Virus record (IMG/VR): IMGVR_UViG_3300001199_000002
Location: 112,062 to 176,061 of that record
Strand: one strand, 5' to 3'
DNA length: 64,000 bases
From: a virus
Taxonomy: Duplodnaviria > Heunggongvirae > Uroviricota > Caudoviricetes
Shown: in pieces, positions 23,929 through 41,601 of the stretch
Position numbering within the stretch: the stretch's first letter is position 1
Layout: every line of letters begins with the position of its first letter
The notes under the pieces: generated by a model
Seen by the model: only the letters and a program-made list of their open reading frames with translations
Told to the model about the DNA's origin: nothing
Database searches by the model: none
Program-made: the position numbers and the translations under genes

Positions 23929-24333
23929 TTAGGCTAGCTCAATGATGCGAACATCTACTGGAGATGCCGAGATACCCCAAACCTTGATTGCTCCATTCAC
24001 TTGGAGTGGAAGGGTTTGTCCCGATGCTAGCGGGAAACCATTGCTGGCGCTGACGTTGGAGTTGAATCCAATGTATAGCGGCGCGGCTGACGCATTATAG
24101 ATTGCAATCGCGCGTCGATAGGGAAGTGGCGTAAGTGGCAGCAGCGTTGGTACGTTGCTAGTAGTTGTTCGTTGGCTACCAGAACCGACCAGACCAGCAC
24201 TATTGTCTTCTGGATTGATAACGCACACGTCAGTTCCGCGAAGGTGCCGCTCATTAGAGCGCGCGTTAAACGGAGTTGCGTATTTTGCTGGATTGAGACC
24301 CGACCCAATGATTACTGAACTTTCTTGTGCCAT
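23929..24333 (-). CDS. Hypothetical protein, paralog of 23157..23561
   Basis: 134 aa, same length and conserved blocks as its paralog. Confidence 0.5.
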   Translation of the reverse strand: MAQESSVIIGSGLNPAKYATPFNARSNERHLRGTDVCVINPEDNSAGLVGSGSQRTTTSNVPTLLPLTPLPYRRAIAIYNASAAPLYIGFNSNVSASNGFPLASGQTLPLQVNGAIKVWGISASPVDVRIIELA

Positions 24334-24401
24334 GTTTTAACCTCTAGGGTGTGATGGTAGATGATGAGTTCTACCATCTCATACACTAAAGGTCAGAGCG
24401 A

Positions 24402-24641
24402 TCAGATCGTCTTTGGCTTGGGCATGCCAGGATTTCCACGGTGTCCGGCCTCCTGATTCACCTTATCTCCTGCTAGGCTGGCTTCTTGCGTCATGATGGT
24501 GACACCATGCTTCTTGCCAACTTGAGTTTTTGACTGCTCTACTGCGCGCATGATGTCTACATGCAGGGCGCGCTTCTGTTCTTCGGTAACGATCTTTGGA
24601 CGACTGCTGATGAGTTCCCAAACTGTTTGATTTAGATCCAT
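24402..24641 (-). CDS. Hypothetical protein
   Basis: ORF. Confidence 0.35.
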   Translation of the reverse strand: MDLNQTVWELISSRPKIVTEEQKRALHVDIMRAVEQSKTQVGKKHGVTIMTQEASLAGDKVNQEAGHRGNPGMPKPKTI

Positions 24642-24642
24642 G

Positions 24643-25518
24643 TTAGTTCTCTACTTTGGTAATGGTTGATTGCGCTTTTTCTAGAAGTTCTCTTACTGTA
24701 TGACCTTTGAGTACAACGGCTAGATTTGTCACAGGATGTCCCATGTGTGTATGCACTAGTCCATTGTAGATACCTATGACTTTTCCCTGTCTATTGAAGA
24801 CTGGACCGCCAGATGCTCCATAGAAGATACCATGGTAAACTCTAAAGAAAGCATCTTGATTGATATCCCAAGGATACTGATATGCGAACATACCAATGAA
24901 TGGTTGTGTTCCATTTGTAGATGCGATTATGCCCTCTCTTAGAAAGAGACCATCCGCATTATCTGATCCTAGACCATAGATGTGGTCGTATGGTTGGATT
25001 GATTCGAATTCCTCTTTTGTTGCTAGTTGTGCGCATGGTAGTTTCACAGCTAGTTCCATAGAGAAAATTCCCCAATCTGAACCAGGAACCATCCAATCAA
25101 AATCGATCAATGATGTATTCAGCATTGTGAGTGGAGCATGAAAACCGTCTTGATAAACGATAGTCATCTTTTTGATCTTCTCTGCTTCTTCTGGTTTCTT
25201 TGTAAGAGCATCACGAAGATCCTCAAGTACATGATACGCTGTTAGAACTCTGTATCGCCAGTTGCCATTCTCTGTCTTGGTGCGCCCAATGAGAATACCA
25301 GTTCCAACGCTGCCAACGCTATTTAGTCTAATCGTTACACCAGACTTGATTGCCTCGGTAAGTGGATCTCCTGCAACTAGGTTAGAAACGTGTGGTAAAG
25401 GAACAGGAACATTGCTGGTTGCCGCTATGTGTATTCCTGCAATTGCAGAGAATAATAGGGCAAACAACAAAACGAAAGGGCGGGCAGTGTTCATACAGAC
25501 TCCTCTACTTAATTGCAA
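24643..25518 (-). CDS. Secreted trypsin-like serine protease (S1 family)
   Basis: N-terminal signal peptide; His block (TAYHVLED); GASGGPVF Ser motif. Confidence 0.7.
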   Translation of the reverse strand: MQLSRGVCMNTARPFVLLFALLFSAIAGIHIAATSNVPVPLPHVSNLVAGDPLTEAIKSGVTIRLNSVGSVGTGILIGRTKTENGNWRYRVLTAYHVLEDLRDALTKKPEEAEKIKKMTIVYQDGFHAPLTMLNTSLIDFDWMVPGSDWGIFSMELAVKLPCAQLATKEEFESIQPYDHIYGLGSDNADGLFLREGIIASTNGTQPFIGMFAYQYPWDINQDAFFRVYHGIFYGASGGPVFNRQGKVIGIYNGLVHTHMGHPVTNLAVVLKGHTVRELLEKAQSTITKVEN

Positions 25519-25783
25519 TGGCAGCGGCTTTAGCTGCTAGTAGAATGGCACCAATTAAGCGTGCGCACGATTCTTTTGTCGCCGTAGCCCTTTTGATGTC
25601 TGCGATGGTTTCTCTAATCTTCTTCTCATCTGGTAGTGAAAACACTGGAGTATCTCTATCGAAGACACTGCCAATGTTGGATTGACCTGCAATTGCATCA
25701 GCCTTAGCTTGATCTGCAACGTTTGTTAGAAACGCGGTGAGCATCTCACGGATTTTATTCTCGTCCACGACTTGCCTCCACAA
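25505..25783 (-). CDS. Hypothetical protein
   Basis: ORF. Confidence 0.3.
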   Translation of the reverse strand: MWRQVVDENKIREMLTAFLTNVADQAKADAIAGQSNIGSVFDRDTPVFSLPDEKKIRETIADIKRATATKESCARLIGAILLAAKAAAIAIK

Positions 25784-26246
25784 TCTTTACGATCCAAAAA
25801 TCTACATTATCAACGGTAATTGGTGTTGCTGACATGTAGCTGTATACAGCTTCAATAAGCTGCTTGGTCGCAATAATGTTCTGACCAATTGGGCCAGTCA
25901 TATCTTTGCGGCGCTTCTCTATCTTCGCAAAGGTGGAGCGCAATTCTTCATCTCTTTTGCCCTCTAGCTCTGCTATTTGCTTAATCTTGTCCTCGTCGGA
26001 CATTTGCGCAAGTCTAACAGCCTGGATCTTTTCTTCGTAAACAAATGTTACGTGATACAGAACTGCCGCCTTACAATCTTCTTCGTAGGTGTTCAGGATC
26101 GTTTCTACGTTCTGCTGAATCACCAGCATTCCCTGATATGCTCCACGCTGTCCATCAATAACCTTAGATGGAGTACTGCTAAATAGCGAACAAGAGGCTA
26201 GGAGTGAAATACAAAAGCCGTATAGGAAGCTTTTTAGTATTCCCAT
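25755..26246 (-). CDS. Putative lipoprotein
   Basis: LLASCSLF lipobox-like signal. Confidence 0.4.
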   Translation of the reverse strand: MGILKSFLYGFCISLLASCSLFSSTPSKVIDGQRGAYQGMLVIQQNVETILNTYEEDCKAAVLYHVTFVYEEKIQAVRLAQMSDEDKIKQIAELEGKRDEELRSTFAKIEKRRKDMTGPIGQNIIATKQLIEAVYSYMSATPITVDNVDFWIVKIVEASRGRE

Positions 26247-26563
26247 GTTTCTCTTAGCCTTCTCTTAACATCGCGCATCTTGTTAACGATGGCATGTTCG
26301 AGTTCTGAAATAGCAGCCTCTACGAACTGCTTCTCATGATGTGGAATGTCATCATTAAGCATAGCCTGGAACATCTCTAGATGTCTTACCATTTGCTTTA
26401 GAAGCTCAACGTCTCGTATGGGATAGGGGCTCATTGAGCTTACGCTTGATAGTAGTTGGTGAACATTTCTCGACTCTGATTCGCTTAAACCTTGGTAGGT
26501 CATAGCTAATATAGTAGAGACGTGAGTCGCTTGCGAACTTGCTGTCTGTTTTGACTTCGCCAT
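26234..26563 (-). CDS. Hypothetical protein (overlaps the next ORF)
   Basis: ORF; start may be internal. Confidence 0.3.
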   Translation of the reverse strand: MAKSKQTASSQATHVSTILAMTYQGLSESESRNVHQLLSSVSSMSPYPIRDVELLKQMVRHLEMFQAMLNDDIPHHEKQFVEAAISELEHAIVNKMRDVKRRLRETWEY

Positions 26564-26792
26564 TCAACTCCTCAACCAATCTGCTATCAGTGTATAGCAA
26601 TAACTCCTCTCCAGCAGGAGGATCACCAAGCTCGCGTAATTGTTCCATGAGGTTGTTGAATACATACCACCTGAAACAATAAAGCGCCGTGGCATCATAT
26701 TCGATACCAACCGGCGCGTCGTATGTTCTGATTACTTCTCCGAGTGGGCCTTCTAATCTAAATCCCTGCTCATTGAAGTATCCTAAGATCAT
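26406..26792 (-). CDS. Hypothetical protein
   Basis: ORF. Confidence 0.35.
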   Translation of the reverse strand: MILGYFNEQGFRLEGPLGEVIRTYDAPVGIEYDATALYCFRWYVFNNLMEQLRELGDPPAGEELLLYTDSRLVEELNGEVKTDSKFASDSRLYYISYDLPRFKRIRVEKCSPTTIKRKLNEPLSHTRR

Positions 26793-26793
26793 C

Positions 26794-27252
26794 TTACTTC
26801 ATGCCCACTTCGATACCAGTTAGCACAGCTAGCAATACAGCCTTAGTGCGCTCTGATCCAATTCCTTCTACACCAAGCTGTACACCACCAAGGGCAGAGT
26901 TGGCTAGTCGAACGCAAGCACGGATAAGCGCAATGTCGTCCTCTTCTAGTCCTGCCTTTGCTAGTTGTTCTGCAAACTGGACCATCAGCGCATCTACCGA
27001 ATTAGGTAGCGAAATAGTTCCACCCTCAATAACCTGCTTGGTCTGAGTTGAAACTAGCACGAGCGCGTCGCGTATCTCTTGCTTGAGTTCCTTCTTGAGA
27101 AGGATCGCACCAATCGTTACGGCGCTTTCGGTGTCTTGGACTACTTGATTGAACTGCTGTTCAGTCATTTCGCCCATGTTTTGTCCACCAACTACGCAAC
27201 ATGGCAGAACCAGCATAAGTGCAGCCATCATACCTGTAAAAGTCTTCTTCAT
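26794..27252 (-). CDS. Secreted hypothetical protein
   Basis: Signal peptide MKKTFTGMMAALMLVLPCCV. Confidence 0.45.
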   Translation of the reverse strand: MKKTFTGMMAALMLVLPCCVVGGQNMGEMTEQQFNQVVQDTESAVTIGAILLKKELKQEIRDALVLVSTQTKQVIEGGTISLPNSVDALMVQFAEQLAKAGLEEDDIALIRACVRLANSALGGVQLGVEGIGSERTKAVLLAVLTGIEVGMK

Positions 27253-27254
27253 TG

Positions 27255-27767
27255 CTATTCTCCTCTTACTCTTGCCCGATCGGGAAGAGGTCTTTGTGTG
27301 TCTTCAAATCTGTCTTCCCACTGGCTCTTCAGCTTTTCCTGAGCAGCAGACCGTGCCTTTCCAGGAGTTAGCGCCCTAAGGGTGCCCTCTTGAAACCGAA
27401 CAGAGTCAGCGATCACGGAGTCAGCCTGGGCAGTGGTTGGTACAGGCAAACGCTCACGAGTAGAGGCGGGGATGGCAATAGGCGGAACGGAACCAGCCTG
27501 GGGCGCTGGTGTTGGCTCTAGAACGTCACCTGGGGTGGCTGGTGCCTCTTGGTTAGCCTCAACGCTAACTACGGGTGCCGCAACAGGGGTTACGATTCGA
27601 ACCGGCGTAGGGGCTTGTAGAACCTCGTCGCCTTCTAATCGTGCCTTAATCTGTGCTAGGGCTTCGTCAGAAATCTCATACTCATTACCACCTAGGATAA
27701 GCGTATGAGTCTGAGCGTCCTTCGCCAGTCTCTTCTTCGTCCAGTCACAAAGTCTGATCGTAGCCAT
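27255..27767 (-). CDS. Pro/Ala-rich hypothetical protein
   Basis: ORF with low-complexity PAPxxG segments. Confidence 0.45.
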   Translation of the reverse strand: MATIRLCDWTKKRLAKDAQTHTLILGGNEYEISDEALAQIKARLEGDEVLQAPTPVRIVTPVAAPVVSVEANQEAPATPGDVLEPTPAPQAGSVPPIAIPASTRERLPVPTTAQADSVIADSVRFQEGTLRALTPGKARSAAQEKLKSQWEDRFEDTQRPLPDRARVRGE

Positions 27768-27791
27768 ACTTCCTCCAACTCCTATGATACA

Positions 27792-28520
27792 CTAAAAGGG
27801 ATTGTCCTCTAGCTCACCGAATCGCTCCATAATATCAACTAGGGCAGGATTGCGTTGAACGTCACGATAGTCATTAAGTTCTACGATACCTACACTCTTG
27901 AGTAGCGTAGGTGTTCTTAGTTTGTCAATAGCATGCTTTAGAGCAGAGTCACCATCTTGTAGGTCTGACTGTCTCAGGTCTCCGTTAAAGACCATCCGAG
28001 AGTGAATACCAAGACGACTCATAACCATATAGACGCCATTGGCCGATTGGCGAATGTTCTGAGCCTCTTCGACGATGACGAATGCGTGGTTAAGACTTCT
28101 GCCACGTAGCAACGTAAGTGGAATGAACTCAATGAAGCCGCCAGTGACTAGCTTTTCAATTGAAGTCTTGTCAAGAAACATTCCCATATTGTCGATGACG
28201 CTTGAACCATATGGAACCATCTTCTCTAGAATGGTTCCTGGAAGTGCGCCAATTGACTCGCCAAACTTGTTACCAATGACTGGGCGAACAATAACGATCT
28301 TCTCGATCTTGTCTTTTGGATCTAGCAAAGCCTGAACAGCAGCATATGCTGCAAGTAGAGTCTTGCCAGTTCCAGCCAAGCCTACCCCAAACGTGAATGT
28401 CTTTCTGTAGATGCTTTCGAGATAGTTCTCCTGATTGGTAGAACGTGGCTCGATCATTCTACTGATGGCAATACCATCGAGAGGATTGGATCTTGGGGTC
28501 TTTGGTTGTTGATGATTCAT
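27792..28520 (-). CDS. phoH: PhoH-like P-loop ATPase
   Basis: GLAGTGKTLLA Walker A; PhoH family length. Confidence 0.9.
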   Translation of the reverse strand: MNHQQPKTPRSNPLDGIAISRMIEPRSTNQENYLESIYRKTFTFGVGLAGTGKTLLAAYAAVQALLDPKDKIEKIVIVRPVIGNKFGESIGALPGTILEKMVPYGSSVIDNMGMFLDKTSIEKLVTGGFIEFIPLTLLRGRSLNHAFVIVEEAQNIRQSANGVYMVMSRLGIHSRMVFNGDLRQSDLQDGDSALKHAIDKLRTPTLLKSVGIVELNDYRDVQRNPALVDIMERFGELEDNPF

Positions 28521-29041
28521 CAGAGTGAACTCCAGCCGTTTAGCTTGTCCTTATCGATCATGAGATTACCTTCTAGATGGTCAGTTTCGTGTTGAAAGAT
28601 ACGCGCTTCCATACCAGTCAATTGTGTACTAATACGTTCACCGATCTCATTGTCGTATTGAACAGAGATTGATTTTGAACGTGAAACAATAGCACCGACT
28701 CCTGGCATAAGCGGAATTGAAAAGCATCCTTCTGGGGACGCTGCGTATTCATCGGAACGCTCTACAATCTTTGGATTGATGACAGCAATGATTTCGTTTG
28801 TCTTTCTGCGCATGACGAAGATACGCTTCGCTATACCTAGCTGAATAGCCGACATGCCAAGCCCGTTGTGTTCTGTTACGAACGACTTGAGGTCGTCGAT
28901 TAGTTCGCCAGTAACTCTATCAAGGCATAGGTTGCCGTCGCCAAGTACGGTAAATGGAACCTCCACGCTTGGTGTGCGCAATAGAGTTAGTCCATCATCT
29001 GTGAGCACTGTTGCAACGGTACGCTTACGTGTTTCTGTCAT
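28520..29041 (-). CDS. def: Peptide deformylase
   Basis: GxGxSAxQ, EGCFS and HETDHLEG motifs. Confidence 0.9.
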   Translation of the reverse strand: MTETRKRTVATVLTDDGLTLLRTPSVEVPFTVLGDGNLCLDRVTGELIDDLKSFVTEHNGLGMSAIQLGIAKRIFVMRRKTNEIIAVINPKIVERSDEYAASPEGCFSIPLMPGVGAIVSRSKSISVQYDNEIGERISTQLTGMEARIFQHETDHLEGNLMIDKDKLNGWSSL

Positions 29042-29042
29042 A

Positions 29043-29783
29043 CTAATTGGTTAGATTAAAGATACCTACGTTAGACACAAAGATGGTGTCTTCCATATGG
29101 GCGGTTAAGCAATCAGCCGATACTACCCATCCATCATCACCATCACTCAGGACATACTTTTTCCTGAGTGCTACGACTGGTTCAACAGCATATGCCCGAC
29201 CGATTTGAAAGATGCTGTCATCGTTTGTTCTTGACGATGGAATCTGAGGAGGCTCGTGGATGTCTCGCCCAATTCCATGACCACAGAATTCTTTGATGAT
29301 GCCAGCATTACAAATCTCTTCTGCGATACGCTGGCAGAACTCTGCATAGACTCGAATCTGTAGGTTTGGCGTAATGATGCTAAGAGAGTTGGTGTGGATG
29401 GTGGTAACTTTTTCGACCATCGACTTCTTGGCATGATCGGCAGAGAACGTAAACGTTCTTGCGCTATCGGCGTGCCAGCCCTTGTGAGAGACAACTAGAT
29501 CAATAGTGATCAGGTCTTCTTTACTTAGGGCGGCGTCTTTTGGAACGCCATGGACAGCTTCCATATTGCGGGCTAAGCAAATGGTGTGTCGATAGGTTCT
29601 ATCAGAAAACGGTGGCTTATATCCCTTGAGAGAGGGCGCACAACCATTATCCTTGATGAACTCTTCTAGACGAGTGTCTAGCTGTGTGCCGGTGACTTCT
29701 TTTTCACAGAGTGTAATACCTAGCTTGATAGCGTCTCGCGCGACCCTACCAGCTATGATCTGTTCGTCACTCGGTCTTTCCAT
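29043..29783 (-). CDS. map: Methionine aminopeptidase type I (M24)
   Basis: HGIGRDIHEPPQIP and other metal-ligand blocks; start placed at internal Met (ORF extends to 29864). Confidence 0.7.
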   Translation of the reverse strand: MERPSDEQIIAGRVARDAIKLGITLCEKEVTGTQLDTRLEEFIKDNGCAPSLKGYKPPFSDRTYRHTICLARNMEAVHGVPKDAALSKEDLITIDLVVSHKGWHADSARTFTFSADHAKKSMVEKVTTIHTNSLSIITPNLQIRVYAEFCQRIAEEICNAGIIKEFCGHGIGRDIHEPPQIPSSRTNDDSIFQIGRAYAVEPVVALRKKYVLSDGDDGWVVSADCLTAHMEDTIFVSNVGIFNLTN

Positions 29784-30744
29784 CTTCCTCTTCGAACACC
29801 TTTTCTCTACCCATGTTGGTGAGAATACGGCCCTTGTTTGTGATCTTAATCCACTGCTTTTCAAGCAGGAATGGTTCGATTCTATCCACGATCTCTTCCT
29901 TGCTGATCTTTAGATATCCAGCGAGGGTGGCGAGACTGGCGATGCCGTTGGTTGCAATGTATTCGAGATAGCTGCGATCCAGGTCATTAGCTCCGTTCTC
30001 ATCAATACCAAGAATAGAGTCCATTACACCTAGACGCTCTTGTGGACTTCCTTCATATACTACACTAACGTCAATGAAAGCTTCGCACAACTCCTCGCGT
30101 AGTTGTCTAATGCTACGACAACGCTTAGCGAGTTCTTCATAGATACTGAGGTCTTGTAGAACAACACCCTGGTTGGCGAGATGATCCATAGCAATACGGA
30201 TCTTATCCTCCATCGAATATGGTTCAAGATTAATCTTACGGAGTCGATTATGAATCGTCTCCTTGAGGCACGATGCGTCTGTGGTAGCAAATACGAATGA
30301 CAAGTTAGATGGTAGTGCTTCGCGCATTACGTCACCCTTGTCGATCCATCGTGTAATGCCATCACAGCAAAGAACGTTACCTACTTCCTTAGTTGCAACA
30401 GTACAGAGCACTGCTGGTTGTTCAAGGACTGACAGTAGATTCTCTTGAACCTTATTTGGAAGCATATGACATTCGTCGATGAATACGATATACTTCGTAT
30501 GCTTATCCTTGTCCGCTTCCTTAAAGTAAGCGCGGAACGCCAGCGCGTCACGGATAGCAGTGCCGTTGATGTAGATAACCTTCGCACCAAGCTCCTTTGC
30601 CCATTCAGTTACTAGGTGCGTCTTGCCATACCCAGAAGGACCGAAGATTCCCAACGGAGGCATATGCCCGGTACGGCTAAAGGTCTGTGCGACAAGTTCG
30701 AACATTTGCTTGGCCCTGAGTTGACCGACGACGTTATCTAGCAT
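29767..30744 (-). CDS. RuvB-like AAA+ ATPase (Holliday junction branch-migration helicase-like)
   Basis: GPSGYGKTHL Walker A; FIDECHML Walker B; C-terminal winged-helix region matches the RuvB domain III pattern. Confidence 0.55.
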   Translation of the reverse strand: MLDNVVGQLRAKQMFELVAQTFSRTGHMPPLGIFGPSGYGKTHLVTEWAKELGAKVIYINGTAIRDALAFRAYFKEADKDKHTKYIVFIDECHMLPNKVQENLLSVLEQPAVLCTVATKEVGNVLCCDGITRWIDKGDVMREALPSNLSFVFATTDASCLKETIHNRLRKINLEPYSMEDKIRIAMDHLANQGVVLQDLSIYEELAKRCRSIRQLREELCEAFIDVSVVYEGSPQERLGVMDSILGIDENGANDLDRSYLEYIATNGIASLATLAGYLKISKEEIVDRIEPFLLEKQWIKITNKGRILTNMGREKVFEEEDGKTE

Positions 30745-30747
30745 GTG

Positions 30748-31287
30748 CTAAGCCTTCCACCTGTTGGTTTGGTATTGAGTAAGTAGTCTTTCGAACAATG
30801 CAGCTAGCCCCTCCCACTCTGATCGTCCACGATCTTTTAGTTGAGCAGAAGCACGAGCGAAGCTGTATTCTTCTGGATTAAGTATAGCATAGAATCTTGA
30901 GGTTGTCAAGTCCTCAACATCGAATTCCTTACCAGATTGTGCCTTAAAGGATCTGAGCGTCTTGTTTTTTAGGATCTCTGTTGCCTCTTGACCAGATGTA
31001 ACGATCAATAGTGGCTTCATTATTTCAAGGATCTCTTTGAGAATAAGTCTATTCTCTTTTTGAGACAATCCTTGAACTATCTCTCTAGGCACACGATATG
31101 TTTCGTCTAATAGACCGAATCTTTTTAGCGCACCAGTCGTCCCATCTCGTTCTGGAATCGTATGATCATGATGAACAATCACCAATTTTGCATATACATT
31201 TCCAGTTCCAACATTCACGCTGGATTCTGGATACATTGATGCTATCCGAAACTGTAGATTATCTAGGATGAACTGTCGCTGGGTCAT
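30748..31287 (-). CDS. Hypothetical protein
   Basis: ORF. Confidence 0.4.
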   Translation of the reverse strand: MTQRQFILDNLQFRIASMYPESSVNVGTGNVYAKLVIVHHDHTIPERDGTTGALKRFGLLDETYRVPREIVQGLSQKENRLILKEILEIMKPLLIVTSGQEATEILKNKTLRSFKAQSGKEFDVEDLTTSRFYAILNPEEYSFARASAQLKDRGRSEWEGLAALFERLLTQYQTNRWKA

Positions 31288-32290
31288 TGCCGGTTCCGAT
31301 GAAGAGTTGCCTATTACTAAACCTGTTACCTTCTACGAAACCATTTGCATCCACCGATGCAGCATTAGCCTTTGTGGGCTCTGCATAATTGCTAGTTGTG
31401 CTATCAGCCATATCAGCCATATGCACTACCTGTGCCTCAATGGACTTTGGCGTGACTGGCGATCCGTGCTCTAGCTTTCCGTGGTGGGCGAGAATACAGT
31501 GGTGAATGTGGTCTTTGATTTCTTGTGGAACTTGTTTATGCAACACTTCATGCTCTAGGCGGTCGAACAATAGTGTAGACATAGCGTAGCTAATTGGAAG
31601 ATGTTCCAAAAGCATACCTTGTCTGGTGACCTTTGCCATTCCATTAGCGTCAATCTCATATGCATACATCTTTCCATGATCATGCATAATAACGCCAGCA
31701 ACTACAATGTCGTAGTCAATCTTTGCTTTGATGTGACCAGCGCCCTGAGTCTTGATTAGAAACTCTGCGTTCATCATCACCTTGGCAACGTGTTCAACAA
31801 GGCCACCACGATATGCTCCACGGTTGGAGTATGATGCTGGTGCCTGACAGAATCTCTTTTTGTGATCGTCAGTAGAGAAGACGAAGTTGAGATACTCTTT
31901 GATGTATGGATTGGTTACCTTACTTTTTGCATCTAGAAGAATTTGGTAGTAGGCATCACACTCTTGATCTGTTAGCCCATTTTGATTCTGATAGGGCGAC
32001 ATATCATCTGGTGCCTTTACAACCATTGGTGGTGTAGCAGTGGCGCTCTTACTGCCCTTATAGTCTTCGATCTTCAACTTGAAGACAGCGAATACTCCTG
32101 GCTTAAGATCCGAGATGTCTGCGGCGCTGGTCTGCCAGATATTGATAGGCAAGGAACCACTATTATCCTTCACCACAACCTTGACGAATGGCTTACCAGC
32201 TTTGGTAGTCTTAGACTCGACTTGGCTGACTAGACAAATCTGTTCTAGTTGTTCGTCTACAACCATTTCTCGTATTAGCTTGTATGTCAC
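31259..32290 (-). CDS. OB-fold + HD-domain phosphohydrolase (YhaM-like 3'-5' exonuclease)
   Basis: N-terminal OB-fold-like region; HD motif H..HDHGK...D; ILAHHG. Confidence 0.6.
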   Translation of the reverse strand: MTYKLIREMVVDEQLEQICLVSQVESKTTKAGKPFVKVVVKDNSGSLPINIWQTSAADISDLKPGVFAVFKLKIEDYKGSKSATATPPMVVKAPDDMSPYQNQNGLTDQECDAYYQILLDAKSKVTNPYIKEYLNFVFSTDDHKKRFCQAPASYSNRGAYRGGLVEHVAKVMMNAEFLIKTQGAGHIKAKIDYDIVVAGVIMHDHGKMYAYEIDANGMAKVTRQGMLLEHLPISYAMSTLLFDRLEHEVLHKQVPQEIKDHIHHCILAHHGKLEHGSPVTPKSIEAQVVHMADMADSTTSNYAEPTKANAASVDANGFVEGNRFSNRQLFIGTGNDPATVHPR

Positions 32291-32490
32291 TTGATTCTCT
32301 TACCAGTTCTATTGTATGTTGGTCTGTCAATTTCTTTGGCAAAACCTTCACTACATGCTGGGCAGTGTGGCACTGTCAGCGTAATGAATTGAATCTGATC
32401 TTGAACCTTAAGCTCAACATCTTCTGCCGACCATGCCGAATTACATCTACGACATTGACGGATTTGTATTGTCTTAGTTGTGAATGCCAT
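32287..32490 (-). CDS. Small zinc-ribbon protein
   Basis: CRRC...CPAC. Confidence 0.35.
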   Translation of the reverse strand: MAFTTKTIQIRQCRRCNSAWSAEDVELKVQDQIQFITLTVPHCPACSEGFAKEIDRPTYNRTGKRIK

Positions 32491-32700
32491 TTACGACAGA
32501 ACTCTAGCGTTGGCTCCGCTCATTGGATAGCGACACTTCTCACATGCTACGACTGTATTTGCATCAATGGTGACAGGAGGAAACTCCTCGACGATATCAC
32601 CATTCGCATTCTTAATTGGAACACCACTCACAAGATCAGACTCGTTGAGTACGTTGATTGCTCCACAGTTAGAGCACTTAATCTCGATTTTCCTGTTCAT
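32491..32700 (-). CDS. Small zinc-ribbon protein
   Basis: CSNCG...CEKC. Confidence 0.35.
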   Translation of the reverse strand: MNRKIEIKCSNCGAINVLNESDLVSGVPIKNANGDIVEEFPPVTIDANTVVACEKCRYPMSGANARVLS

Positions 32701-33304
32701 AGTATGCTACCCTCTCCCTCATTCTTTTTGAAAGCCTATCGATAGTCGTATACACGCTCGACTTTGACACATTGTAATTTCTTGCGATCTCTTGCAAAGT
32801 CTTCTCTTCGAAGACATGCTCTTTGAACATCGATACTTCGAGTGGTGAAAAACCACGGAAGTAGAATTCCTCAAACTCATTCTCTCCTACTTCGACACCA
32901 GATCCTACCGGGATGTCGATTGATCTCTCCTGGTCGTCGCTAGCTCCCCTCGGTTGGTCAATACGAACGACACCAATACTAGTCATCTCTGCTAGATGAT
33001 CTCTGGACTCTTTCTCTGAAATGCTTAGTTGATGACAATTCCTTTTGCAGAAGGTCTGCATGGCATTTAGAACATACATGTATGTGTAACTTGTCCATGC
33101 GCCTTTTGCTGGATCGAAGTTCTTGTATGCATTACACGCGGCTGCCATTCCCTCAGACACTAGGTCTTGTTGAGAAACAATGGGATGTTCTCTAGCGAAT
33201 CGATAAGACGATCGCAGCGCCTTATACGATAGAGTCTCAACCATTGTCTTAAAGTTCTTGTCTTCGATTAGCGATTCTAGTGTCGGTTTGCTAGGCTGAT
33301 TCAT
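32678..33304 (-). CDS. Sigma-70-family RNA polymerase sigma factor
   Basis: Region 2-like block; C-terminal region-4 HTH (LQEIARNYNVSKSSVYTTIDRLSKRMR). Confidence 0.6.
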   Translation of the reverse strand: MNQPSKPTLESLIEDKNFKTMVETLSYKALRSSYRFAREHPIVSQQDLVSEGMAAACNAYKNFDPAKGAWTSYTYMYVLNAMQTFCKRNCHQLSISEKESRDHLAEMTSIGVVRIDQPRGASDDQERSIDIPVGSGVEVGENEFEEFYFRGFSPLEVSMFKEHVFEEKTLQEIARNYNVSKSSVYTTIDRLSKRMRERVAYYEQENRD

Positions 33305-33705
33305 ACTTCTCCGTTATCTACATATGACTGCACGGCAGAAACCATCATGTCTATCCAGGTCTGTTTCTGTTCGGCTGTCATGTTTTTGAATTCGATCACG
33401 ATACTAGCGTGACCAGATGTCGGTATACTCTCTAGTGCCTCTTCCCTCTCCGCAGCCTTTGCTGACCATAGTGGTTTATTTGACTTCGCATCTAGAACAA
33501 AGATGCCTATGAGATTGTTATCACCCTCACACTCGAACAAGAAGCTCTGTAGTTGTTCGAACTTAATCTTTGTTCTGACTGGATCAGAACCCCTATACAG
33601 GGTCATTACCAGAATTTCTGATAGGGGTTGAAAACCTTGGCGGGCGAGATGGTCTCTAAGACCTTTTACTTGAGTCCAGTTGATTCGCAGCATCATACTA
33701 CTCAC
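33301..33705 (-). CDS. Hypothetical protein
   Basis: ORF. Confidence 0.4.
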   Translation of the reverse strand: MSSMMLRINWTQVKGLRDHLARQGFQPLSEILVMTLYRGSDPVRTKIKFEQLQSFLFECEGDNNLIGIFVLDAKSNKPLWSAKAAEREEALESIPTSGHASIVIEFKNMTAEQKQTWIDMMVSAVQSYVDNGEV

Positions 33706-33883
33706 CTTTGTAGAAAGGGTCGTTCGTTACCTCACCCCAAAGGACCATTTCATCAACATCGTCGAGACGGTTGTTGACTACAAATCGTTGAGGTTGACTC
33801 CGCTGCGGACTGGTGGACAGGCACCTATGAAGGATGCCGATTAGGATGCCCACCAAAAAGACAACTACGTACCAGAGTGTCAT
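33698..33883 (-). CDS. Small membrane protein
   Basis: TM helix; promoter-like motif immediately upstream. Confidence 0.35.
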   Translation of the reverse strand: MTLWYVVVFLVGILIGILHRCLSTSPQRSQPQRFVVNNRLDDVDEMVLWGEVTNDPFYKGE

Positions 33884-33904
33884 ATGTAAGTATACACTAA
33901 GGGG

Positions 33905-34396
33905 CTAGGCGAGCAATTTTTTCACACCAAACTCGTCCACCACATAGTGACCCATACCCCAGGTTACAAATGGCGACTTGAGTTGCCACATGATCCTTGT
34001 ACGATACCTCAGTAGTTTATTACTAAGGTCTCGCAATGATGTATTGGTAGTTTCAATCTCTTCAATCTCTGGAGAGAAATAGTTAGCGCCACTTACAATT
34101 GCTATGTCGCGGATAACTCGACGCGGACAATAGCCAATAACGTAGAACGTCTTAGGATCAGGTGCGGCGGAGTTTAGATTGATATCTCTAGTTGACGAGC
34201 CAATCAACTTAGCTTCTAGTCCAAAGCCATTGCTTAGCTGTACATCAGGTGAACTTTCTACGTTACGGTAACACTTAGTGTCTTGAACCTTGGCAAGCCG
34301 ATAAATGAGCGCTTCAAAATCCTTCCAGCTTTGGATCTGGAGTTGACTAGCTCTTATGTCGTGTACCAGTTTTTGCAGACTGAACGTCTCTTCCAT
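33905..34396 (-). CDS. Hypothetical protein
   Basis: ORF. Confidence 0.4.
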   Translation of the reverse strand: MEETFSLQKLVHDIRASQLQIQSWKDFEALIYRLAKVQDTKCYRNVESSPDVQLSNGFGLEAKLIGSSTRDINLNSAAPDPKTFYVIGYCPRRVIRDIAIVSGANYFSPEIEEIETTNTSLRDLSNKLLRYRTRIMWQLKSPFVTWGMGHYVVDEFGVKKLLA

Positions 34397-34682
34397 TGGT
34401 AAGCTTTAGAGTTTCTAGCTCTTTGTTTTTGTCTTCTAGCATGCGCTCATACGTGGCACGTAAACTGGCGATTCCGTGAATATCAGATTTTAGCGCATCA
34501 ACTAGCTCTGTCATGAACTTGAGATCAAGCATGACACGACAGAGCGTAAGCTCGTCTTCCTGAGACCCAACACCTTGCTTAAGGCGTATACGTCTAGCCA
34601 TTCCCGCGACGAGATCGAGATTGGCCATCATATCACGAGGACTCAGCGTCGTGAGATATACTTCAAGCTGTTCCGGTGTCAC
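34347..34682 (-). CDS. Hypothetical protein
   Basis: ORF. Confidence 0.35.
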   Translation of the reverse strand: MTPEQLEVYLTTLSPRDMMANLDLVAGMARRIRLKQGVGSQEDELTLCRVMLDLKFMTELVDALKSDIHGIASLRATYERMLEDKNKELETLKLTNGRDVQSAKTGTRHKS

Positions 34683-37828: not shown

Positions 37829-38959
37829 TCACTCATGCTTTAGCAACCACTCGTTGCTGATTGCTTTGAAGCTAAGGCTTCCATCCAAAGCCTTGAATAC
37901 CAACCCTTCTCGCATGGTATTGCCATTCAACGCACTAACTCCATCGGCAAGAGTGAGAACACTATCAAGACTCATCGGAGTATCCTGATTCCAAACCATG
38001 ATAGGCACATGCTTTAGTCCGAGTTCGTGCGCAAGCTCGAAACGTTCGCGAGCACCTAGATACTTCTTTGCATCAATATCGTAGATGTCGAACACGTAGA
38101 ACTCTTGCTTGGCGAGATGGTATTTATTGCCCTGGATTGCAGGCCCGATGATCTCACCCTGAATGGCGATGTTACGTCCCAGTTCCCAAAGCTTATTGAC
38201 CAGATCGCTCTCTCTTAGAGTCTTGCTGTATACGTTATCATCGTCCTTCTGCATCTCCCAATTGCGGGATGCTACACCTACGACATCCTTCTTGAGACGT
38301 TCTACTTCTTCTGGCTTGCTGATATCATATCCCTGACCATCAAGCTTCTTGCCGAGACCCACAATCTCTTGTGTGATGAATGACCAGATGGTGCAGCTAG
38401 TTCCATCCAGCTTCTCTGTTACTTCAAAGTCCGAGATATTTCTGCCGTTCAACACATCTGTAATGTTCTGGATTCGTTCTTGATCTGTCTTTGGCACTAG
38501 GTGCGTTGGGAATGTTCCAGCCTGCTTACCACCAGTAGGAAGGGGTGGCTCGTACTTCTGAACACCTAGAACAGTAGTGAGTTCTTCGCCAGCACCTACA
38601 CGAGCGACTTCATCAGGAGTCAGACTCGTCGCCGGTATAAGAAGCCCTTGCGATAGAGTTCCTTTAAGACGGATGGTCTTGATGCGCGCGAACGGTGTGA
38701 CCTTGCCCTTAGCCAGGAATGCAAAGCGTGGATCAGTTGCGGGCAGCATCGAATCAATTTCGAAGTATACGCCCTCATCACCCACATTGAATTCGCCCTT
38801 CTTAACAACGCACTGCCAGCCATCGATACGGGCAAGTTCAATACGATCAGCCCCAGCGATAGGTGCCAGTTCGCGAACTACTCTCTTTGTTGCTAGTTGT
38901 CTCATAGTGCTAGAACTCCAAGCATTACTACTACCACGGCGATGAATCCAATTACGCAC
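37829..38959 (-). CDS. ATP-dependent RNA ligase (DraRnl/Rnl5-like: N-terminal extension + nucleotidyltransferase domain)
   Basis: Motif I KLDGTS near residue 183; motif IV EGLVFK; roughly 180-aa N-terminal domain precedes the NTase domain. Confidence 0.6.
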   Translation of the reverse strand: MRNWIHRRGSSNAWSSSTMRQLATKRVVRELAPIAGADRIELARIDGWQCVVKKGEFNVGDEGVYFEIDSMLPATDPRFAFLAKGKVTPFARIKTIRLKGTLSQGLLIPATSLTPDEVARVGAGEELTTVLGVQKYEPPLPTGGKQAGTFPTHLVPKTDQERIQNITDVLNGRNISDFEVTEKLDGTSCTIWSFITQEIVGLGKKLDGQGYDISKPEEVERLKKDVVGVASRNWEMQKDDDNVYSKTLRESDLVNKLWELGRNIAIQGEIIGPAIQGNKYHLAKQEFYVFDIYDIDAKKYLGARERFELAHELGLKHVPIMVWNQDTPMSLDSVLTLADGVSALNGNTMREGLVFKALDGSLSFKAISNEWLLKHE

Positions 38960-39285
38960 GCACCAAGATTTCTCATCATGAAATACTTTGCTGCCATATT
39001 TTGGTGACCGGCAAGAGCATCATCATATGAGGTATAGCGTTGCTGTTCAATTCCTCTGTAGCTGTTTCCACGAAACACCATTGTTTCGAACAACACCGGC
39101 TTTGGTTCGCCAGATCCGATATCGTCTGATAGAATTCCATGATCGATACCAAGGAACACCGTTGAGACGGACCATGGCCAGAATGTTTCTTGCTTTACGA
39201 TCCGACGAGGATCGTTCATCCAACCGGCACACTCCTGCATTGTGGCAGGCTTTGGTTGGTTATCGTCGTCTAGGATGTAGAACAT
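38902..39285 (-). CDS. Hypothetical protein, C-terminal TM helix
   Basis: ORF. Confidence 0.35.
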   Translation of the reverse strand: MFYILDDDNQPKPATMQECAGWMNDPRRIVKQETFWPWSVSTVFLGIDHGILSDDIGSGEPKPVLFETMVFRGNSYRGIEQQRYTSYDDALAGHQNMAAKYFMMRNLGACVIGFIAVVVVMLGVLAL

Positions 39286-39689
39286 TACTTCTTCTCAGTG
39301 AGAACAATCTCTGGAACACGAATTCGAACAGTCTCAGTACCGTCAGGACTAGTAAGCTCTACCACATAGGCGCGCATTACAACCTCTTCCCTAGTCATGC
39401 TATTGATCCAAGTGGCCATCCCCTGGACTTCTACAATCTTAGCATCATATGGAATGTCCTCAACCACAACAGCATCTCCAACCTTAAACTTAGTTGGCTG
39501 TTCTACTGGAACTTCCACGGTTGGTTCAACTGGCTTTGTGACTGGCACAACTGGTTCTGAACATGCTACAAGTGTAGCTAACAGCAGCAAAGAAACATTC
39601 TTCATACACAACTCCTTTATTGTTCGAATCTTCGTGCCATCCTCAAAATGGCATCTCGCGGCACCCCATGAGTGTTGCGCTTTGCGCAC
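39285..39689 (-). CDS. Putative lipoprotein
   Basis: LLLLATLVACSEP lipobox. Confidence 0.4.
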   Translation of the reverse strand: MRKAQHSWGAARCHFEDGTKIRTIKELCMKNVSLLLLATLVACSEPVVPVTKPVEPTVEVPVEQPTKFKVGDAVVVEDIPYDAKIVEVQGMATWINSMTREEVVMRAYVVELTSPDGTETVRIRVPEIVLTEKK

Positions 39690-40066
39690 ATGTCGATGTA
39701 ACTATCATCAAAGATAGCTTCACCCGCCACTGGTGAGATCAGCACTTCTTGAACTTCATAGCCAGCAGCTTGCGCGAAGTCCTTGTATGGCTGCATCTCT
39801 TTGTGTGTGGTATTAGTATTGTCAACGTAGATGATCTCGACACCAGCGTTCATCATCTTCTGACACTTGACTTGGTTATTACGATGGTTCACACCAAGCT
39901 TCGTAGCATCGAAGACATACTGTCCATCAGCATTCAAGAATTGGTCATCGGTCGAACAGATCGCAATACTGCGCACGCCAGCTTGCAACTGTGCGGAGAT
40001 ATCCATCTGAACCCAAGTGGACTTGCCGCCACCAGGAAGACCACGCATGATGTAGAGCTTCTTCAT
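39617..40066 (-). CDS. Polynucleotide 5'-kinase (T4 Pnk kinase-domain-like, stand-alone)
   Basis: MKKLYIMRGLPGGGKSTW parallels T4 Pnk MKKIILTIGCPGSGKSTW; DNTN and RNTHGVPRDAILRM blocks also conserved. Confidence 0.65.
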   Translation of the reverse strand: MKKLYIMRGLPGGGKSTWVQMDISAQLQAGVRSIAICSTDDQFLNADGQYVFDATKLGVNHRNNQVKCQKMMNAGVEIIYVDNTNTTHKEMQPYKDFAQAAGYEVQEVLISPVAGEAIFDDSYIDMCAKRNTHGVPRDAILRMARRFEQ

Positions 40067-40108
40067 GTCAGTATAGTATCACAACTAGATGAGTTGTCAA
40101 GTTGATTC

Positions 40109-41311
40109 TCAGAAAGATGCCTTTGCGCTTTCTCCATCCGAGGATTGAATACCCAATTCGGACAGCTTCTTGTCGAGAGTATAGCGATTGTTACCACGCT
40201 TCACATAGTCTCGCGCACCAACACTGCTCGACATTCTGAAAGCTTCACTCATCAACGATGCTTGCGTGACCTCTTTACCACTAAAGGTAGTGTCAAAAAC
40301 ATCTCCATCTAGCTTGAGCGTATTGGTCCAGAAATTTCTGGCATCATCTCGACCTAGTGCATTAAGCTTCAAGAAGTCGAAGCAACGTCCCGGACGGATA
40401 AGTGCAGAGTCAATCTCTTTTACTGCTTGATTCGTCGTGATGATGATCTTGACCTTACCCTGAGTGAAGATACCGTCACTATAGCTCAGTAGTTGAGTCA
40501 TGAACGTGCTCTCGGTATTCTTCCTACGAGGTAGCAAGTTGATATCTAGATCATCGAAAATGACAAGATCGTAGTTAGCGCCAGTCAGAGAACTCCAAAG
40601 CTCTCCGTCCTCCATCACCCTGGGATCTTTGATGTAGGCGGCGTTCTTGAAGTCACCATGCGCAATGATGTACTTTACGAAGGTGGTCTTACCAACACCC
40701 GGCTCGCCATACAACATCAGGATTGGCTCGTTTGCATTGTTGTATTGATAAACAAGCTTGCTAATGTCAATGTCTGGATAGAGGTCGGGATAGATGTCTG
40801 TAAAATCATCAAGTGCTACATACAGGTCTCTATTGGTTAGACCATGCTTAGTAGACATATAGAAGTATGCAAGGTCTAGCGACAGTGAGTCACCAACATC
40901 AGTAGTTGGAACGAGATTTAAGAACTCGATTAGGACTTTTTCGCTACTGTTCGTAGTGACAAAGAGTTGTAGCTTGCTTGTTTCATGCGCCATCTCGCGC
41001 AAGAATACGACGATCTCGTGACCCTCATAGTTGAGTTCGAAGTTAAAACAATTGTCGCTCTTTAGTTTAGTTACTTTTGCACCGCTAACCTCAACCAAAA
41101 ATTTCAAGACATCAGGCAAATGTCTCTTCCTGAATGAGATTCGATCCAAGAAGTGAAAGCCACGTTCCTTGTAGAGGTTCAGAAATGGCAAAAACGTTGC
41201 CAGATCACCAATGCCATCTAGATTAGGTGCGATGACAAAATCGCGTTGTTGTCTTTGTGTAGTCAAGTGACCTTTGTTTTTGAAGTGTTTAGGAAGTGGA
41301 AAGAGTTTCAC
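40109..41311 (-). CDS. AAA-family ATPase
   Basis: GEPGVGKTT Walker A; DLVIFDDLD Walker B; second-region-of-homology block ALIRPGRCFD. Confidence 0.6.
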   Translation of the reverse strand: MKLFPLPKHFKNKGHLTTQRQQRDFVIAPNLDGIGDLATFLPFLNLYKERGFHFLDRISFRKRHLPDVLKFLVEVSGAKVTKLKSDNCFNFELNYEGHEIVVFLREMAHETSKLQLFVTTNSSEKVLIEFLNLVPTTDVGDSLSLDLAYFYMSTKHGLTNRDLYVALDDFTDIYPDLYPDIDISKLVYQYNNANEPILMLYGEPGVGKTTFVKYIIAHGDFKNAAYIKDPRVMEDGELWSSLTGANYDLVIFDDLDINLLPRRKNTESTFMTQLLSYSDGIFTQGKVKIIITTNQAVKEIDSALIRPGRCFDFLKLNALGRDDARNFWTNTLKLDGDVFDTTFSGKEVTQASLMSEAFRMSSSVGARDYVKRGNNRYTLDKKLSELGIQSSDGESAKASF

Positions 41312-41601
41312 GCTGGCTTGGTATCTGGTCCGTCTAGGCTGTCTGGATCAATCCACACCACCTTGGTCTTTCCGTCATGTCCATGAATAGATCGAAGATT
41401 TCTTACGTTACGAAAGAATGTGATGCTTGTCTTATGTGAGAGCCATTGCATTGCGACAGCACCATCTTCGAACTCGACACCTTCCGCGACTCTACCAGTG
41501 CCACTCACACCACTCTCATCTTCGGTTCGTTGTAGATAAAATCTACGCATTGTCTTCCTCTTCTTTTGGATATCCACTCTCGATTTCAACACCAAGATCA
41601 T
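41308..41601 (-). CDS. Hypothetical protein
   Basis: ORF. Confidence 0.35.
   Translation of the reverse strand: MILVLKSRVDIQKKRKTMRRFYLQRTEDESGVSGTGRVAEGVEFEDGAVAMQWLSHKTSITFFRNVRNLRSIHGHDGKTKVVWIDPDSLDGPDTKPA

What the first reader, a model, noticed from the sequence alone, without database searches (positions are those of the whole stretch)
28520..29864. Adjacent peptide deformylase and methionine aminopeptidase: a complete N-terminal processing pair
Peptide deformylase is a known phage auxiliary gene. A contiguous type I methionine aminopeptidase, the second step of N-terminal maturation, is far less common in phages. Together, downstream of PhoH, they suggest a phage drive to maximise N-terminal processing of its own proteins.
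Basis: partly seen in the sequence, partly recalled or inferred. Interest (0 to 1): 0.55.

Follow-up and report, generated by a model that had tools for sequence, protein, structure and literature searches.

The report
Phage-encoded methionine aminopeptidase–deformylase gene pair
A large uncultivated phage (about 175 kb) carries intact, back-to-back genes for both enzymes that trim the start of new proteins; the deformylase is a familiar phage gene, the aminopeptidase is rare in phages, and the pair is conserved across a whole phage lineage.

Summary
On the minus strand lie a type I methionine aminopeptidase (MAP) at 29043-29783 and a peptide deformylase (PDF) at 28520-29041. The MAP start is the ATG at 29783, not the TTG at 29864. 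One base separates the two genes, and both sit in a tightly packed run: RuvB-like, MAP, PDF, PhoH. All five MAP metal ligands and both catalytic histidines are present and invariant in 33 relatives down to 37% identity. The three PDF motifs are intact. AlphaFold models match solved MetAP and PDF structures. The window is a large tailed phage: 24 tRNA genes, a tail spike and a class II RNR. MAP belongs to a monophyletic clade seen only on metagenomic or viral contigs and at most about 34% identical to cellular MAPs. In 25 of 27 related loci PDF directly follows MAP; two divergent relatives keep MAP but lack PDF. None of 80 cellular map loci has def nearby. MAP is rare in GenBank phages and absent from phage entries in BFVD. 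I found no paper on a phage MAP. PhoH lies downstream of the pair. Both enzymes are new members of known kinds; interest is moderate.

The parts
29043..29783 (-). Type I methionine aminopeptidase (MAP), 246 aa, stop TAG at 29043-29045. Metal ligands are D95 (29499-29501), D106 (29466-29468), H169 (29277-29279), E201 (29181-29183) and E231 (29091-29093). Catalytic residues are H78 (29550-29552) and H176 (29256-29258). A 6-residue insertion, unusual among type I MAPs, sits in the S1-pocket loop (GYKPPFSDRTYRHTIC, residues 54-69).
29784..29864 (-). 5' extension of the mechanical ORF, from the TTG at 29864. It is probably not part of MAP and lies inside the 3' end of the RuvB-like gene.
28520..29041 (-). 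Peptide deformylase (PDF), 173 aa. Motif 1 is GLGMSAIQ (G60-Q67), motif 2 is EGCFS (E104-S108, with Cys106 at 28724-28726), and motif 3 is QHETDH (Q150-H155). It lacks the C-terminal ribosome-binding helix of type 1 PDFs. Instead it has a short tail ending in a conserved F/L-x-G-W motif, modelled as a beta strand (residues 167-172).
29039..29045 (-). MAP-PDF junction: TAG, one base, then ATG. This spacing is compatible with translational coupling.
28518..28522 (-). PDF-PhoH junction: TGATG, with stop and start overlapping by one base.
27792..28520 (-). PhoH-like ATPase, the conserved downstream neighbour of the pair.
29767..30744 (-). RuvB-like AAA+ protein with a RuvB C-terminal winged helix, the conserved upstream neighbour. 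Its stop overlaps the MAP start by 17 nt.
30748..32290 (-). Two further conserved upstream genes of the syntenic block. One is a 179-aa protein of unknown function (30748-31287). The other is an OB+HD protein distantly similar to the 3'-5' exoribonuclease YhaM (31259-32290).
27255..27767 (-). Conserved 170-aa protein of unknown function just downstream of PhoH. It is part of the same syntenic block.

Best explanation
The window comes from a large (about 175 kb), uncultivated tailed phage. It carries catalytically intact genes for both steps of N-terminal methionine excision. PDF removes the formyl group from the fMet of nascent chains. The type I MAP then removes the exposed Met when residue 2 is small. 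The two genes are packed into one minus-strand run (RuvB-like, MAP, PDF, PhoH) with 17-nt, 1-nt-gap and 1-nt-overlap junctions. They are therefore most likely co-transcribed and translationally coupled, giving matched amounts of the two enzymes. The module is ancestral to a phage lineage and inherited vertically. It is not a recent capture of a host operon. The likely benefit (inferred, not shown) is to keep the rate-limiting deformylation step and the following Met excision from becoming limiting during infection. Infection brings heavy phage translation, which the tRNA bank also supports. A further likely benefit is independence from the host's own MetAP and PDF. Retained fMet is reported to act as a degron. 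Host MetAP is a documented host factor for a late step of some phage lytic cycles.
For: Shown: family matches. The five metal ligands and two catalytic His align to E. coli D97, D108, H171, E204, E235, H79 and H178. They are invariant in 33 clade members down to 37% identity. The MAP model has pLDDT 96.7 and superposes on E. coli MetAP with TM 0.90-0.91 and rmsd 1.5 A. PDF motifs are conserved across the clade, with invariant Cys and H-E-x-x-H. The PDF model has pLDDT 94, and its best structural matches are the T. maritima and cyanophage S-SSM7 PDFs. Junction sequences are shown, and no terminator-like signal above chance lies inside the block. The context is phage: 21 tRNAs by ARAGORN plus 3 more by Rfam, a tail-spike protein, class II RNR, ThyX, NAMPT, RNA ligase and a sigma factor. 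A syntenic contig is in IMG/VR. Lineage conservation: PDF directly follows MAP in 25 of 27 related loci that have downstream DNA, and also in L118 and L160. MAP and PDF pairwise distances correlate at r = 0.90, and MAP versus RuvB-like at r = 0.89. The MAP clade is monophyletic with 44 tips. It is absent from 185,579 species genomes, where the best match is at most 32% identical. The arrangement is not inherited from a cellular operon: 0 of 80 cellular map loci have def within 5 kb, while 37-38 have SecY or Adk. [quoted passage not shown] A host metAP point mutation blocks a late step of cos-type Streptococcus phages (PMC6761271).
Against: There is no biochemical or expression data. Both proteins score below NCBIfam's equivalog cut-offs: MAP 125.7 against 171.35, and PDF 100.5 against 103.95. 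They are therefore divergent. The S1-pocket loop of MAP carries a 6-residue insertion, and E. coli C59 and F177 are replaced by L and I, so substrate specificity could differ. PDF lacks the C-terminal helix that docks E. coli PDF on the ribosome. Second residues of predicted phage ORFs are not enriched in MAP-permissive residues. Two divergent relatives (L003, L028) keep MAP but have no PDF, so the pair is not obligatory. Host and infection physiology are unknown.
Confidence: 0.7

Rival explanations
1. Specialised rather than bulk processing. The phage MAP, with or without PDF, matures one or a few specific phage proteins, for example a virion or assembly protein whose N-terminus must be exposed. 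Alternatively it has altered P1' specificity because of the insertion in the S1-pocket loop.
For: A 6-residue insertion sits in the loop that lines the S1 pocket. It is conserved across the clade, with P57, Y64 and C69 invariant. There is no proteome-wide enrichment of small second residues. In Streptococcus phages the loss of host MetAP activity blocks a specific late step, not protein expression (PMC6761271). MAP is retained where PDF is lost.
Against: Y55, C69, H78 and W219, the equivalents of E. coli Y62, C70, H79 and W221, are kept. Insertions of the same length occur in cellular MAPs that sit in the ordinary SecY-Adk-Map operon. No candidate substrate has been identified.
Confidence: 0.15
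2. Counter-resistance or host independence is the main selective reason. Carrying its own MAP and PDF lets the phage replicate in hosts whose MetAP or PDF is mutated, down-regulated, inhibited (for example by actinonin-like compounds), or shut off with host gene expression.
For: A single metAP mutation gives strong phage resistance in S. thermophilus and S. mutans (PMC6761271). The phage enzymes are very divergent from any cellular MAP, at most about 34% identity. The pair arose independently at least once more in another large viral contig, in the opposite gene order (L146).
Against: This is purely inferential. The host is unknown, and there is no evidence that natural hosts vary in MetAP or PDF. 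This reading overlaps with, rather than excludes, the capacity-boost explanation.
Confidence: 0.1
3. The M24 protein is a catalytically inert or moonlighting homologue, like the eukaryotic EBP1/PA2G4 proteins, and only PDF is an enzyme.
For: The score is below the TIGR00500 equivalog cut-off.
Against: All seven catalytic and metal-binding residues are invariant across 33 sequences at 37-97% identity. The predicted fold is nearly identical to active MetAPs.
Confidence: 0.03
4. The genes are cellular: host contamination, a mis-binned bacterial contig, or a very recent host-gene capture.
For: Many 'phage' GenBank records with MAP hits look like host contigs.
Against: The window has no cellular housekeeping context and many phage genes. 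The clade is absent from 185,579 species genomes. Cellular map sits next to SecY and Adk and never next to def in 80 loci. Synteny is conserved on 131-176 kb contigs, one of which is an IMG/VR viral genome.
Confidence: 0.02

Closest known systems
Bacterial type I (Ia) methionine aminopeptidase, e.g. E. coli MetAP (PDB 1MAT/2MAT)
   Same: Same pita-bread fold (TM 0.90-0.91, rmsd 1.5 A). The five metal ligands and both catalytic histidines are identical. There is no N-terminal extension and no type II insert. Most S1 residues are kept.
   Different: Only 24-26% identical in the structural alignments to E. coli MetAP. It scores below the TIGR00500 equivalog cut-off. It has a 6-residue insertion in the S1 loop, with E. 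coli C59 replaced by L and F177 by I. At 246 aa it is shorter than E. coli MetAP (264 aa). It is encoded by a phage next to def, not in the SecY-Adk-Map operon.
Phage-encoded peptide deformylases (cyanophage S-SSM7 PDF, PDB 3UWA; Vibrio phage Vp16 PDF, PDB 5MTC)
   Same: The three catalytic motifs are intact. It has a type 1B-like core and lacks the C-terminal alpha helix, as described for S-SSM7 and most marine viral PDFs (PMC3660681). S-SSM7 PDF is the second-best sequence and structure match.
   Different: About 32-37% identical. It carries an N-terminal extension and insert, and a clade-specific F-x-G-W C-terminal tail. The host is not known to be a cyanobacterium, so the D1 and photosystem II rationale need not apply. 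Here it is paired with a MAP.
Other MAP genes on viral sequences (Vibrio phage V6Aob PV454620, annotated 'type I methionyl aminopeptidase'; huge phage LR756511; at least 41 IMG/VR contigs)
   Same: These are type I MAP homologues carried on phage or viral contigs, often large ones.
   Different: They fall outside this clade and are nearer to cellular MAPs. None has def within 4-10 kb except L146, which has the order def then map. No synteny is shared with this lineage.
Translation-related gene sets of huge phages (Al-Shayeb et al. 2020, PMC7162821)
   Same: Large phage genomes with many tRNAs and genes for late translation steps, including PDF. That paper proposes these genes sustain translation during infection.
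   Different: The main text of that paper lists PDF but does not mention a methionine aminopeptidase. This genome is about 175 kb, below the 200-kb 'huge phage' threshold.

Membership tests
Type I methionine aminopeptidase (MEROPS M24A) | Pita-bread fold | tested here: met
   AF2 model with pLDDT 96.7. The top 50 Foldseek PDB hits are methionine aminopeptidases, with one trypanosome entry titled simply 'aminopeptidase'. The match to E. coli MetAP has TM 0.90-0.91 and rmsd 1.5 A.
Type I methionine aminopeptidase (MEROPS M24A) | Five metal ligands (E. coli D97, D108, H171, E204, E235) | tested here: met
   D95, D106, H169, E201 and E231 align to them. They are invariant in 33 clade sequences. 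Codons were verified.
Type I methionine aminopeptidase (MEROPS M24A) | Catalytic histidines (E. coli H79, H178) | tested here: met
   H78 and H176 are invariant.
Type I methionine aminopeptidase (MEROPS M24A) | Type I rather than type II (no roughly 60-residue helical insert) | tested here: met
   The protein is 246 aa. TIGR00500 (type I) scores 125.7 bits against 35 bits for TIGR00501 (type II). The best structural matches are type Ia enzymes.
Type I methionine aminopeptidase (MEROPS M24A) | NCBIfam TIGR00500 equivalog trusted cut-off (171.35 bits) | tested here: not met
   It scores 125.7 bits, so it is a divergent subfamily. The Pfam PF00557 gathering score is met (100 against 23).
Type I methionine aminopeptidase (MEROPS M24A) | Methionine-specific S1 pocket (E. 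coli C59, Y62, Y65, C70, F177, W221; residue list from my own knowledge) | tested here: inconclusive
   Y55, C69 and W219 are kept, and either Y64 or F59 may stand in for Y65. C59 is replaced by L and F177 by I. A 6-residue insertion lies between the two tyrosines. I could not inspect model coordinates.
Type I methionine aminopeptidase (MEROPS M24A) | Removes N-terminal Met from peptides with a small P1' residue | not testable with these tools
   Needs an enzyme assay.
Peptide deformylase (type 1B-like) | Motif 1, G-phi-G-phi-A-A-x-Q | tested here: met
   GLGMSAIQ, where the first Ala is replaced by Ser. G62 and Q67 are invariant in 30 sequences.
Peptide deformylase (type 1B-like) | Motif 2, E-G-C-L-S (metal-binding Cys) | tested here: met
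   EGCFS. E104, C106 and S108 are invariant in alignment A3. Cys is invariant in all loci.
Peptide deformylase (type 1B-like) | Motif 3, Q-H-E-x-D-H (two metal-binding His and the catalytic Glu) | tested here: met
   QHETDH. H151, E152 and H155 are invariant.
Peptide deformylase (type 1B-like) | C-terminal alpha helix of type 1 PDFs (the ribosome-docking element in E. coli) | tested here: not met
   Only 10 residues follow the last position aligned to E. coli residue 144 of 168. The model shows a beta strand at 167-172 and no helix. The same absence is described for cyanophage and most marine viral PDFs (PMC3660681).
Peptide deformylase (type 1B-like) | Curated score cut-offs | tested here: inconclusive
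   The Pfam gathering score is met (117 against 22.8). TIGR00079 is narrowly missed (100.5 against 103.95).
N-terminal methionine excision pathway as a two-enzyme system | Both enzymes are present and act in sequence on nascent chains | not testable with these tools
   Presence and tight linkage are shown. Sequential action and ribosome association are inferred from knowledge of the bacterial pathway (PMC8185961).

The most novel reading that the evidence does not exclude
The block YhaM-like RNase, unknown protein, RuvB-like, MAP, PDF, PhoH is a phage-specific unit for handling nascent chains or ribosome-associated steps. Its MAP has a remodelled S1 loop, and its PDF has a new C-terminal tail in place of the ribosome-docking helix. 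Together these would give the phage an N-terminal processing route that is independent of, and possibly differs in specificity or ribosome docking from, that of the host. In the sub-lineages that lost PDF, MAP would work alone, with host PDF, or with other translation factors such as the GGQ-domain protein seen next to it in L003.
Probability: 0.1. Interest if true: 0.65.

Novelty: new member of a known kind. Interest (0 to 1): 0.42.

Why it matters
Phage PDFs have been discussed for over a decade as auxiliary genes that sustain translation. The second enzyme of the same pathway has, as far as my searches show, not been studied in phages. Here a deep-branching, virus-only MAP clade is fixed next to PDF across a lineage of roughly 175-kb phages, recovered from many different metagenomes (JGI, ENA, NCBI, Logan and Tara). 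This argues that N-terminal methionine excision can itself limit phage fitness. It fits the finding that host MetAP mutations confer phage resistance. The clade offers compact, divergent MAP and PDF enzymes for biochemical work on specificity, ribosome docking and inhibitor sensitivity. It also adds one more step to the list of translation functions that large phages carry. It is not a new mechanism.

Tried and rejected
(1) DNA similarity of 27000-33000 to GenBank phages gave no match, so no cultured relative exists.
(2) A viral-contig scan with the single MAP protein found nothing. The alignment-based scan found only one IMG/VR contig of this clade. A scan with the RuvB-like alignment found the same single contig plus distant AAA+ proteins. 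I therefore could not ask whether sister phages lack the module.
(3) A promoter and terminator scan of 24000-34500 gave counts at chance level.
(4) Second-residue composition as a test of 'own proteins are MAP substrates' showed no enrichment. My gene starts are crude, so this is weak evidence.
(5) I tested whether the phage MAP has lost the positively charged ribosome-binding loop of E. coli MetAP. The window loop has net charge -1 against +4 in E. coli. Cellular MAPs in my set range from -5 to +4 (mean +0.6), so the comparison is uninformative.
(6) I looked for a phage initiator tRNA or an fmt gene in the window and found neither.
(7) Looking up the contig that encodes the identical PDF (P0121) failed, so the sample of origin is unknown.
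(8) The 136-aa ORF that takes PDF's place in L003 has no Pfam match at E <= 1, so I treat PDF as lost there rather than degenerate.
Full report
**The observation**

Four ORFs abut on the minus strand:
- a RuvB-like AAA+ gene at 29767-30744
- an M24 ORF at 29043-29864
- a deformylase ORF at 28520-29041
- PhoH at 27792-28520

The deformylase ORF matches Pfam PF01327 at 117 bits, the M24 ORF matches PF00557 at 100 bits, and PhoH matches PF02562 at 176 bits. In NCBIfam the M24 protein's best match is TIGR00500, type I methionyl aminopeptidase, at 125.7 bits. The type II model scores 35 bits. The deformylase scores 100.5 bits on TIGR00079. Both are under the strict equivalog cut-offs of 171.35 and 103.95, so both are divergent.

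All 42 close homologue clusters are 244-263 aa and begin at the equivalent of the ATG at 29783. That ATG follows a GAGGAAG stretch and overlaps the RuvB-like stop by 17 nt. MAP ends with TAG, one base precedes the PDF ATG, and the PDF stop overlaps the PhoH start as TGATG. No terminator or promoter signal above chance lies inside the block. The transcription order is RuvB-like, MAP, PDF, PhoH, so PhoH is downstream of the pair.

**Are the enzymes intact?**

Aligned to E. coli MetAP, the window protein keeps all the key residues:

| Window MAP | E. coli MetAP | Role |
|---|---|---|
| D95 | D97 | metal ligand |
| D106 | D108 | metal ligand |
| H169 | H171 | metal ligand |
| E201 | E204 | metal ligand |
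| E231 | E235 | metal ligand |
| H78 | H79 | catalytic |
| H176 | H178 | catalytic |

All seven are invariant in an alignment of 33 clade members that are only 37-97% identical. An AlphaFold model built on that alignment has pLDDT 96.7 and superposes on E. coli MetAP with TM 0.90-0.91 and rmsd 1.5 A.

One feature unusual among type I MAPs is a 6-residue insertion in the loop lining the S1 pocket (GYKPPFSxxxYxHTIC). E. coli C59 and F177 are replaced by L and I. Insertions of similar length also occur in some cellular MAPs that sit in ordinary SecY-Adk-Map operons. The insertion alone therefore does not show a change of specificity.

PDF keeps motif 1 (GLGMSAIQ), motif 2 (EGCFS) and motif 3 (QHETDH). 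The metal-binding Cys and the H-E-x-x-H residues are invariant across the clade. Its model has pLDDT 94, and the best structural matches are T. maritima PDF and the cyanophage S-SSM7 PDF.

Like S-SSM7 and most marine viral PDFs (PMC3660681), it lacks the C-terminal helix that docks E. coli PDF on the ribosome. It ends instead in a conserved F-x-G-W tail, modelled as a beta strand.

**What carries the genes**

The window has 21 tRNA genes by ARAGORN and three more by Rfam. It also encodes:
- a tail-spike-like protein
- class II ribonucleotide reductase
- ThyX
- NAMPT with a NUDIX partner
- an RNA ligase
- a sigma factor
- a GIY-YIG endonuclease
- sugar-nucleotide enzymes

There are no cellular housekeeping operons. 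An identical PDF lies on a 176,061-bp JGI contig, and relatives lie on contigs of 173,202 and 175,159 bp. This suggests a genome of about 175 kb. GenBank phages hold no DNA relative and no real relative of the RuvB-like protein.

**Relatives and conservation**

The protein search shows a sharp break. Forty-two clusters are 39-97% identical to the window MAP, all from metagenomic assemblies. Identity then drops to about 33% for cellular MAPs. In a neighbour-joining tree the clade is monophyletic, with 44 tips and no outsiders. A scan of one genome from each of 185,579 bacterial and archaeal species found nothing above 32% identity. There is therefore no visible donor and no prophage copy.

I collected 31 related loci, about 20 of them distinct, and two more through gene look-ups. 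They show the conserved order OB+HD (YhaM-like), unknown, RuvB-like, MAP, PDF, PhoH, unknown. PDF directly follows MAP in 25 of the 27 loci that have downstream DNA.

The two exceptions are the most divergent members:
- **L003** has an unrelated 136-aa ORF in PDF's place. It also has a GGQ-domain (RF-1) protein two genes upstream of MAP.
- **L028** has MAP abutting PhoH.

Pairwise distances of MAP and PDF correlate at r = 0.90, and MAP with RuvB-like at r = 0.89. This indicates vertical co-inheritance rather than repeated capture.

**How unusual is it?**

By tblastn, 165 of 50,697 GenBank phage records carry a PDF, mainly cyanophages and Vibrio, Brevundimonas and Caulobacter phages. Only 26 carry any MAP-like sequence, all below 31% identity, and most look like host contigs deposited as phage. 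Three plausible cases are Vibrio phage V6Aob (annotated type I MAP), the 595-kb phage LR756511, and an unverified Pseudomonas phage. None of them has a PDF within 6-10 kb.

BFVD returned only giant-virus M24 proteins and no phage entry. A pattern scan of IMG/VR with a diverse MAP alignment found 41 further viral contigs with non-clade MAPs, many on contigs of 100-460 kb. Only one of these (L146) has an adjacent PDF, in the order def then map. Its MAP is canonical, at 240 bits on TIGR00500. The pairing has therefore arisen at least twice.

In cellular genomes the arrangement is not seen. None of 80 map loci has def within 5 kb, whereas 37-38 have SecY or Adk.

Literature searches found no paper on a phage-encoded MAP. 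The huge-phage survey lists PDF but not MAP in its main text. A review remarks in passing that MAP homologues occur on viral fragments (PMC10452541).

**Mechanism**

Shown: two intact enzymes, tightly linked, conserved as a pair.

Inferred from the established bacterial pathway: PDF deformylates nascent fMet, a step described as the rate-limiting prerequisite for MAP, and retained fMet acts as a degron (PMC8185961). MAP then removes Met when residue 2 is small. Coupled expression would supply both steps together.

The selective reason is not shown. Two non-exclusive readings fit the evidence:
- **Capacity.** The genes keep processing capacity up during heavy phage translation.
- **Independence.** The genes free the phage from reliance on host enzymes. 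A single host metAP mutation blocks a late step of cos-type Streptococcus phages and confers resistance (PMC6761271).

This neither supports nor excludes bulk processing.

**Verdict**

The enzymes are new, divergent members of known families. The new point is that a virus-only MAP clade is fixed next to PDF across a phage lineage. Interest is moderate.

Noticed in passing
window 43098-62281 (minus strand): A bank of 24 tRNA genes: 21 by ARAGORN and 3 more found only by Rfam, interspersed with small ORFs. I saw no tRNA-Met or tRNA-fMet. Several have odd lengths. Thr(tgt) is 86 nt, Cys 87 nt and Pro 90 nt, which is long for class I. The four Leu tRNAs are only 74-79 nt, which is short for class II.
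   Followed up: partly
window 49859-49967 (-): A tRNA-like gene of 109 nt (Rfam 57 bits) that ARAGORN missed. By my reading the anticodon is UAU, and a 36-nt insertion follows the anticodon stem. Two other Rfam-only tRNAs have non-canonical T-loops: 56868-56938 (anticodon GUC) and 53226-53296 (anticodon UCC).
   Followed up: partly
window 57430-57502 (-): A Pistol self-cleaving ribozyme match (RF02679, 51.5 bits against a gathering score of 34.5), lying inside the tRNA region.
   Followed up: no
L003:5264-5692 (125,876-bp contig, MAP 39% identical): In the divergent relative that lacks PDF, a 142-aa protein lies two genes upstream of MAP. It consists only of the GGQ/RF-1 domain (92 bits), like PrfH or ArfB. 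This is another translation-linked gene in the same neighbourhood.
   Followed up: partly
L146:3445-4759 (IMGVR_UViG_3300037560_000207, 181 kb): An independent, overlapping def-then-map pair on an unrelated large viral contig. Its MAP passes the TIGR00500 cut-off, and its PDF has the longer C-terminal tail that the window PDF lacks. A BrxL (BREX Lon-like) homologue lies 1.3 kb downstream (427 bits).
   Followed up: partly
window 31259-32290 (-): The conserved 343-aa neighbour has an OB-fold plus HD domain and is distantly similar to the 3'-5' exoribonuclease YhaM (96 bits, cut-off 460). With PhoH and the RuvB-like ATPase, this gives the block an RNA- or nucleic-acid-handling flavour.
   Followed up: no
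window 45760-48085 (-): NAMPT (524 bits to phrog_448) lies next to a 308-aa protein with a C-terminal NUDIX domain. This looks like the NAD+ salvage pair described in other large phages.
   Followed up: no
window 37829-42331 (-): An RNA ligase (PHA02142 OB fold plus RNA_ligase domain), an AAA ATPase and a calcineurin-like phosphoesterase lie close together, upstream of the tRNA bank. They may form a tRNA or RNA repair set.
   Followed up: no
window 2888-3442 (+): A GIY-YIG plus HTH homing-endonuclease-like ORF is inserted among glycosyltransferase and sugar-nucleotide genes. The region 1-10400 also encodes a DNA N6/N4 methylase, a DegT aminotransferase and two GDP-mannose-dehydratase or epimerase family enzymes.
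   Followed up: no
related contigs: Three independent contigs of this lineage are 173,202, 175,159 and 176,061 bp long. This suggests near-complete genomes of about 175 kb. Only one member of the lineage is present in IMG/VR.
   Followed up: no
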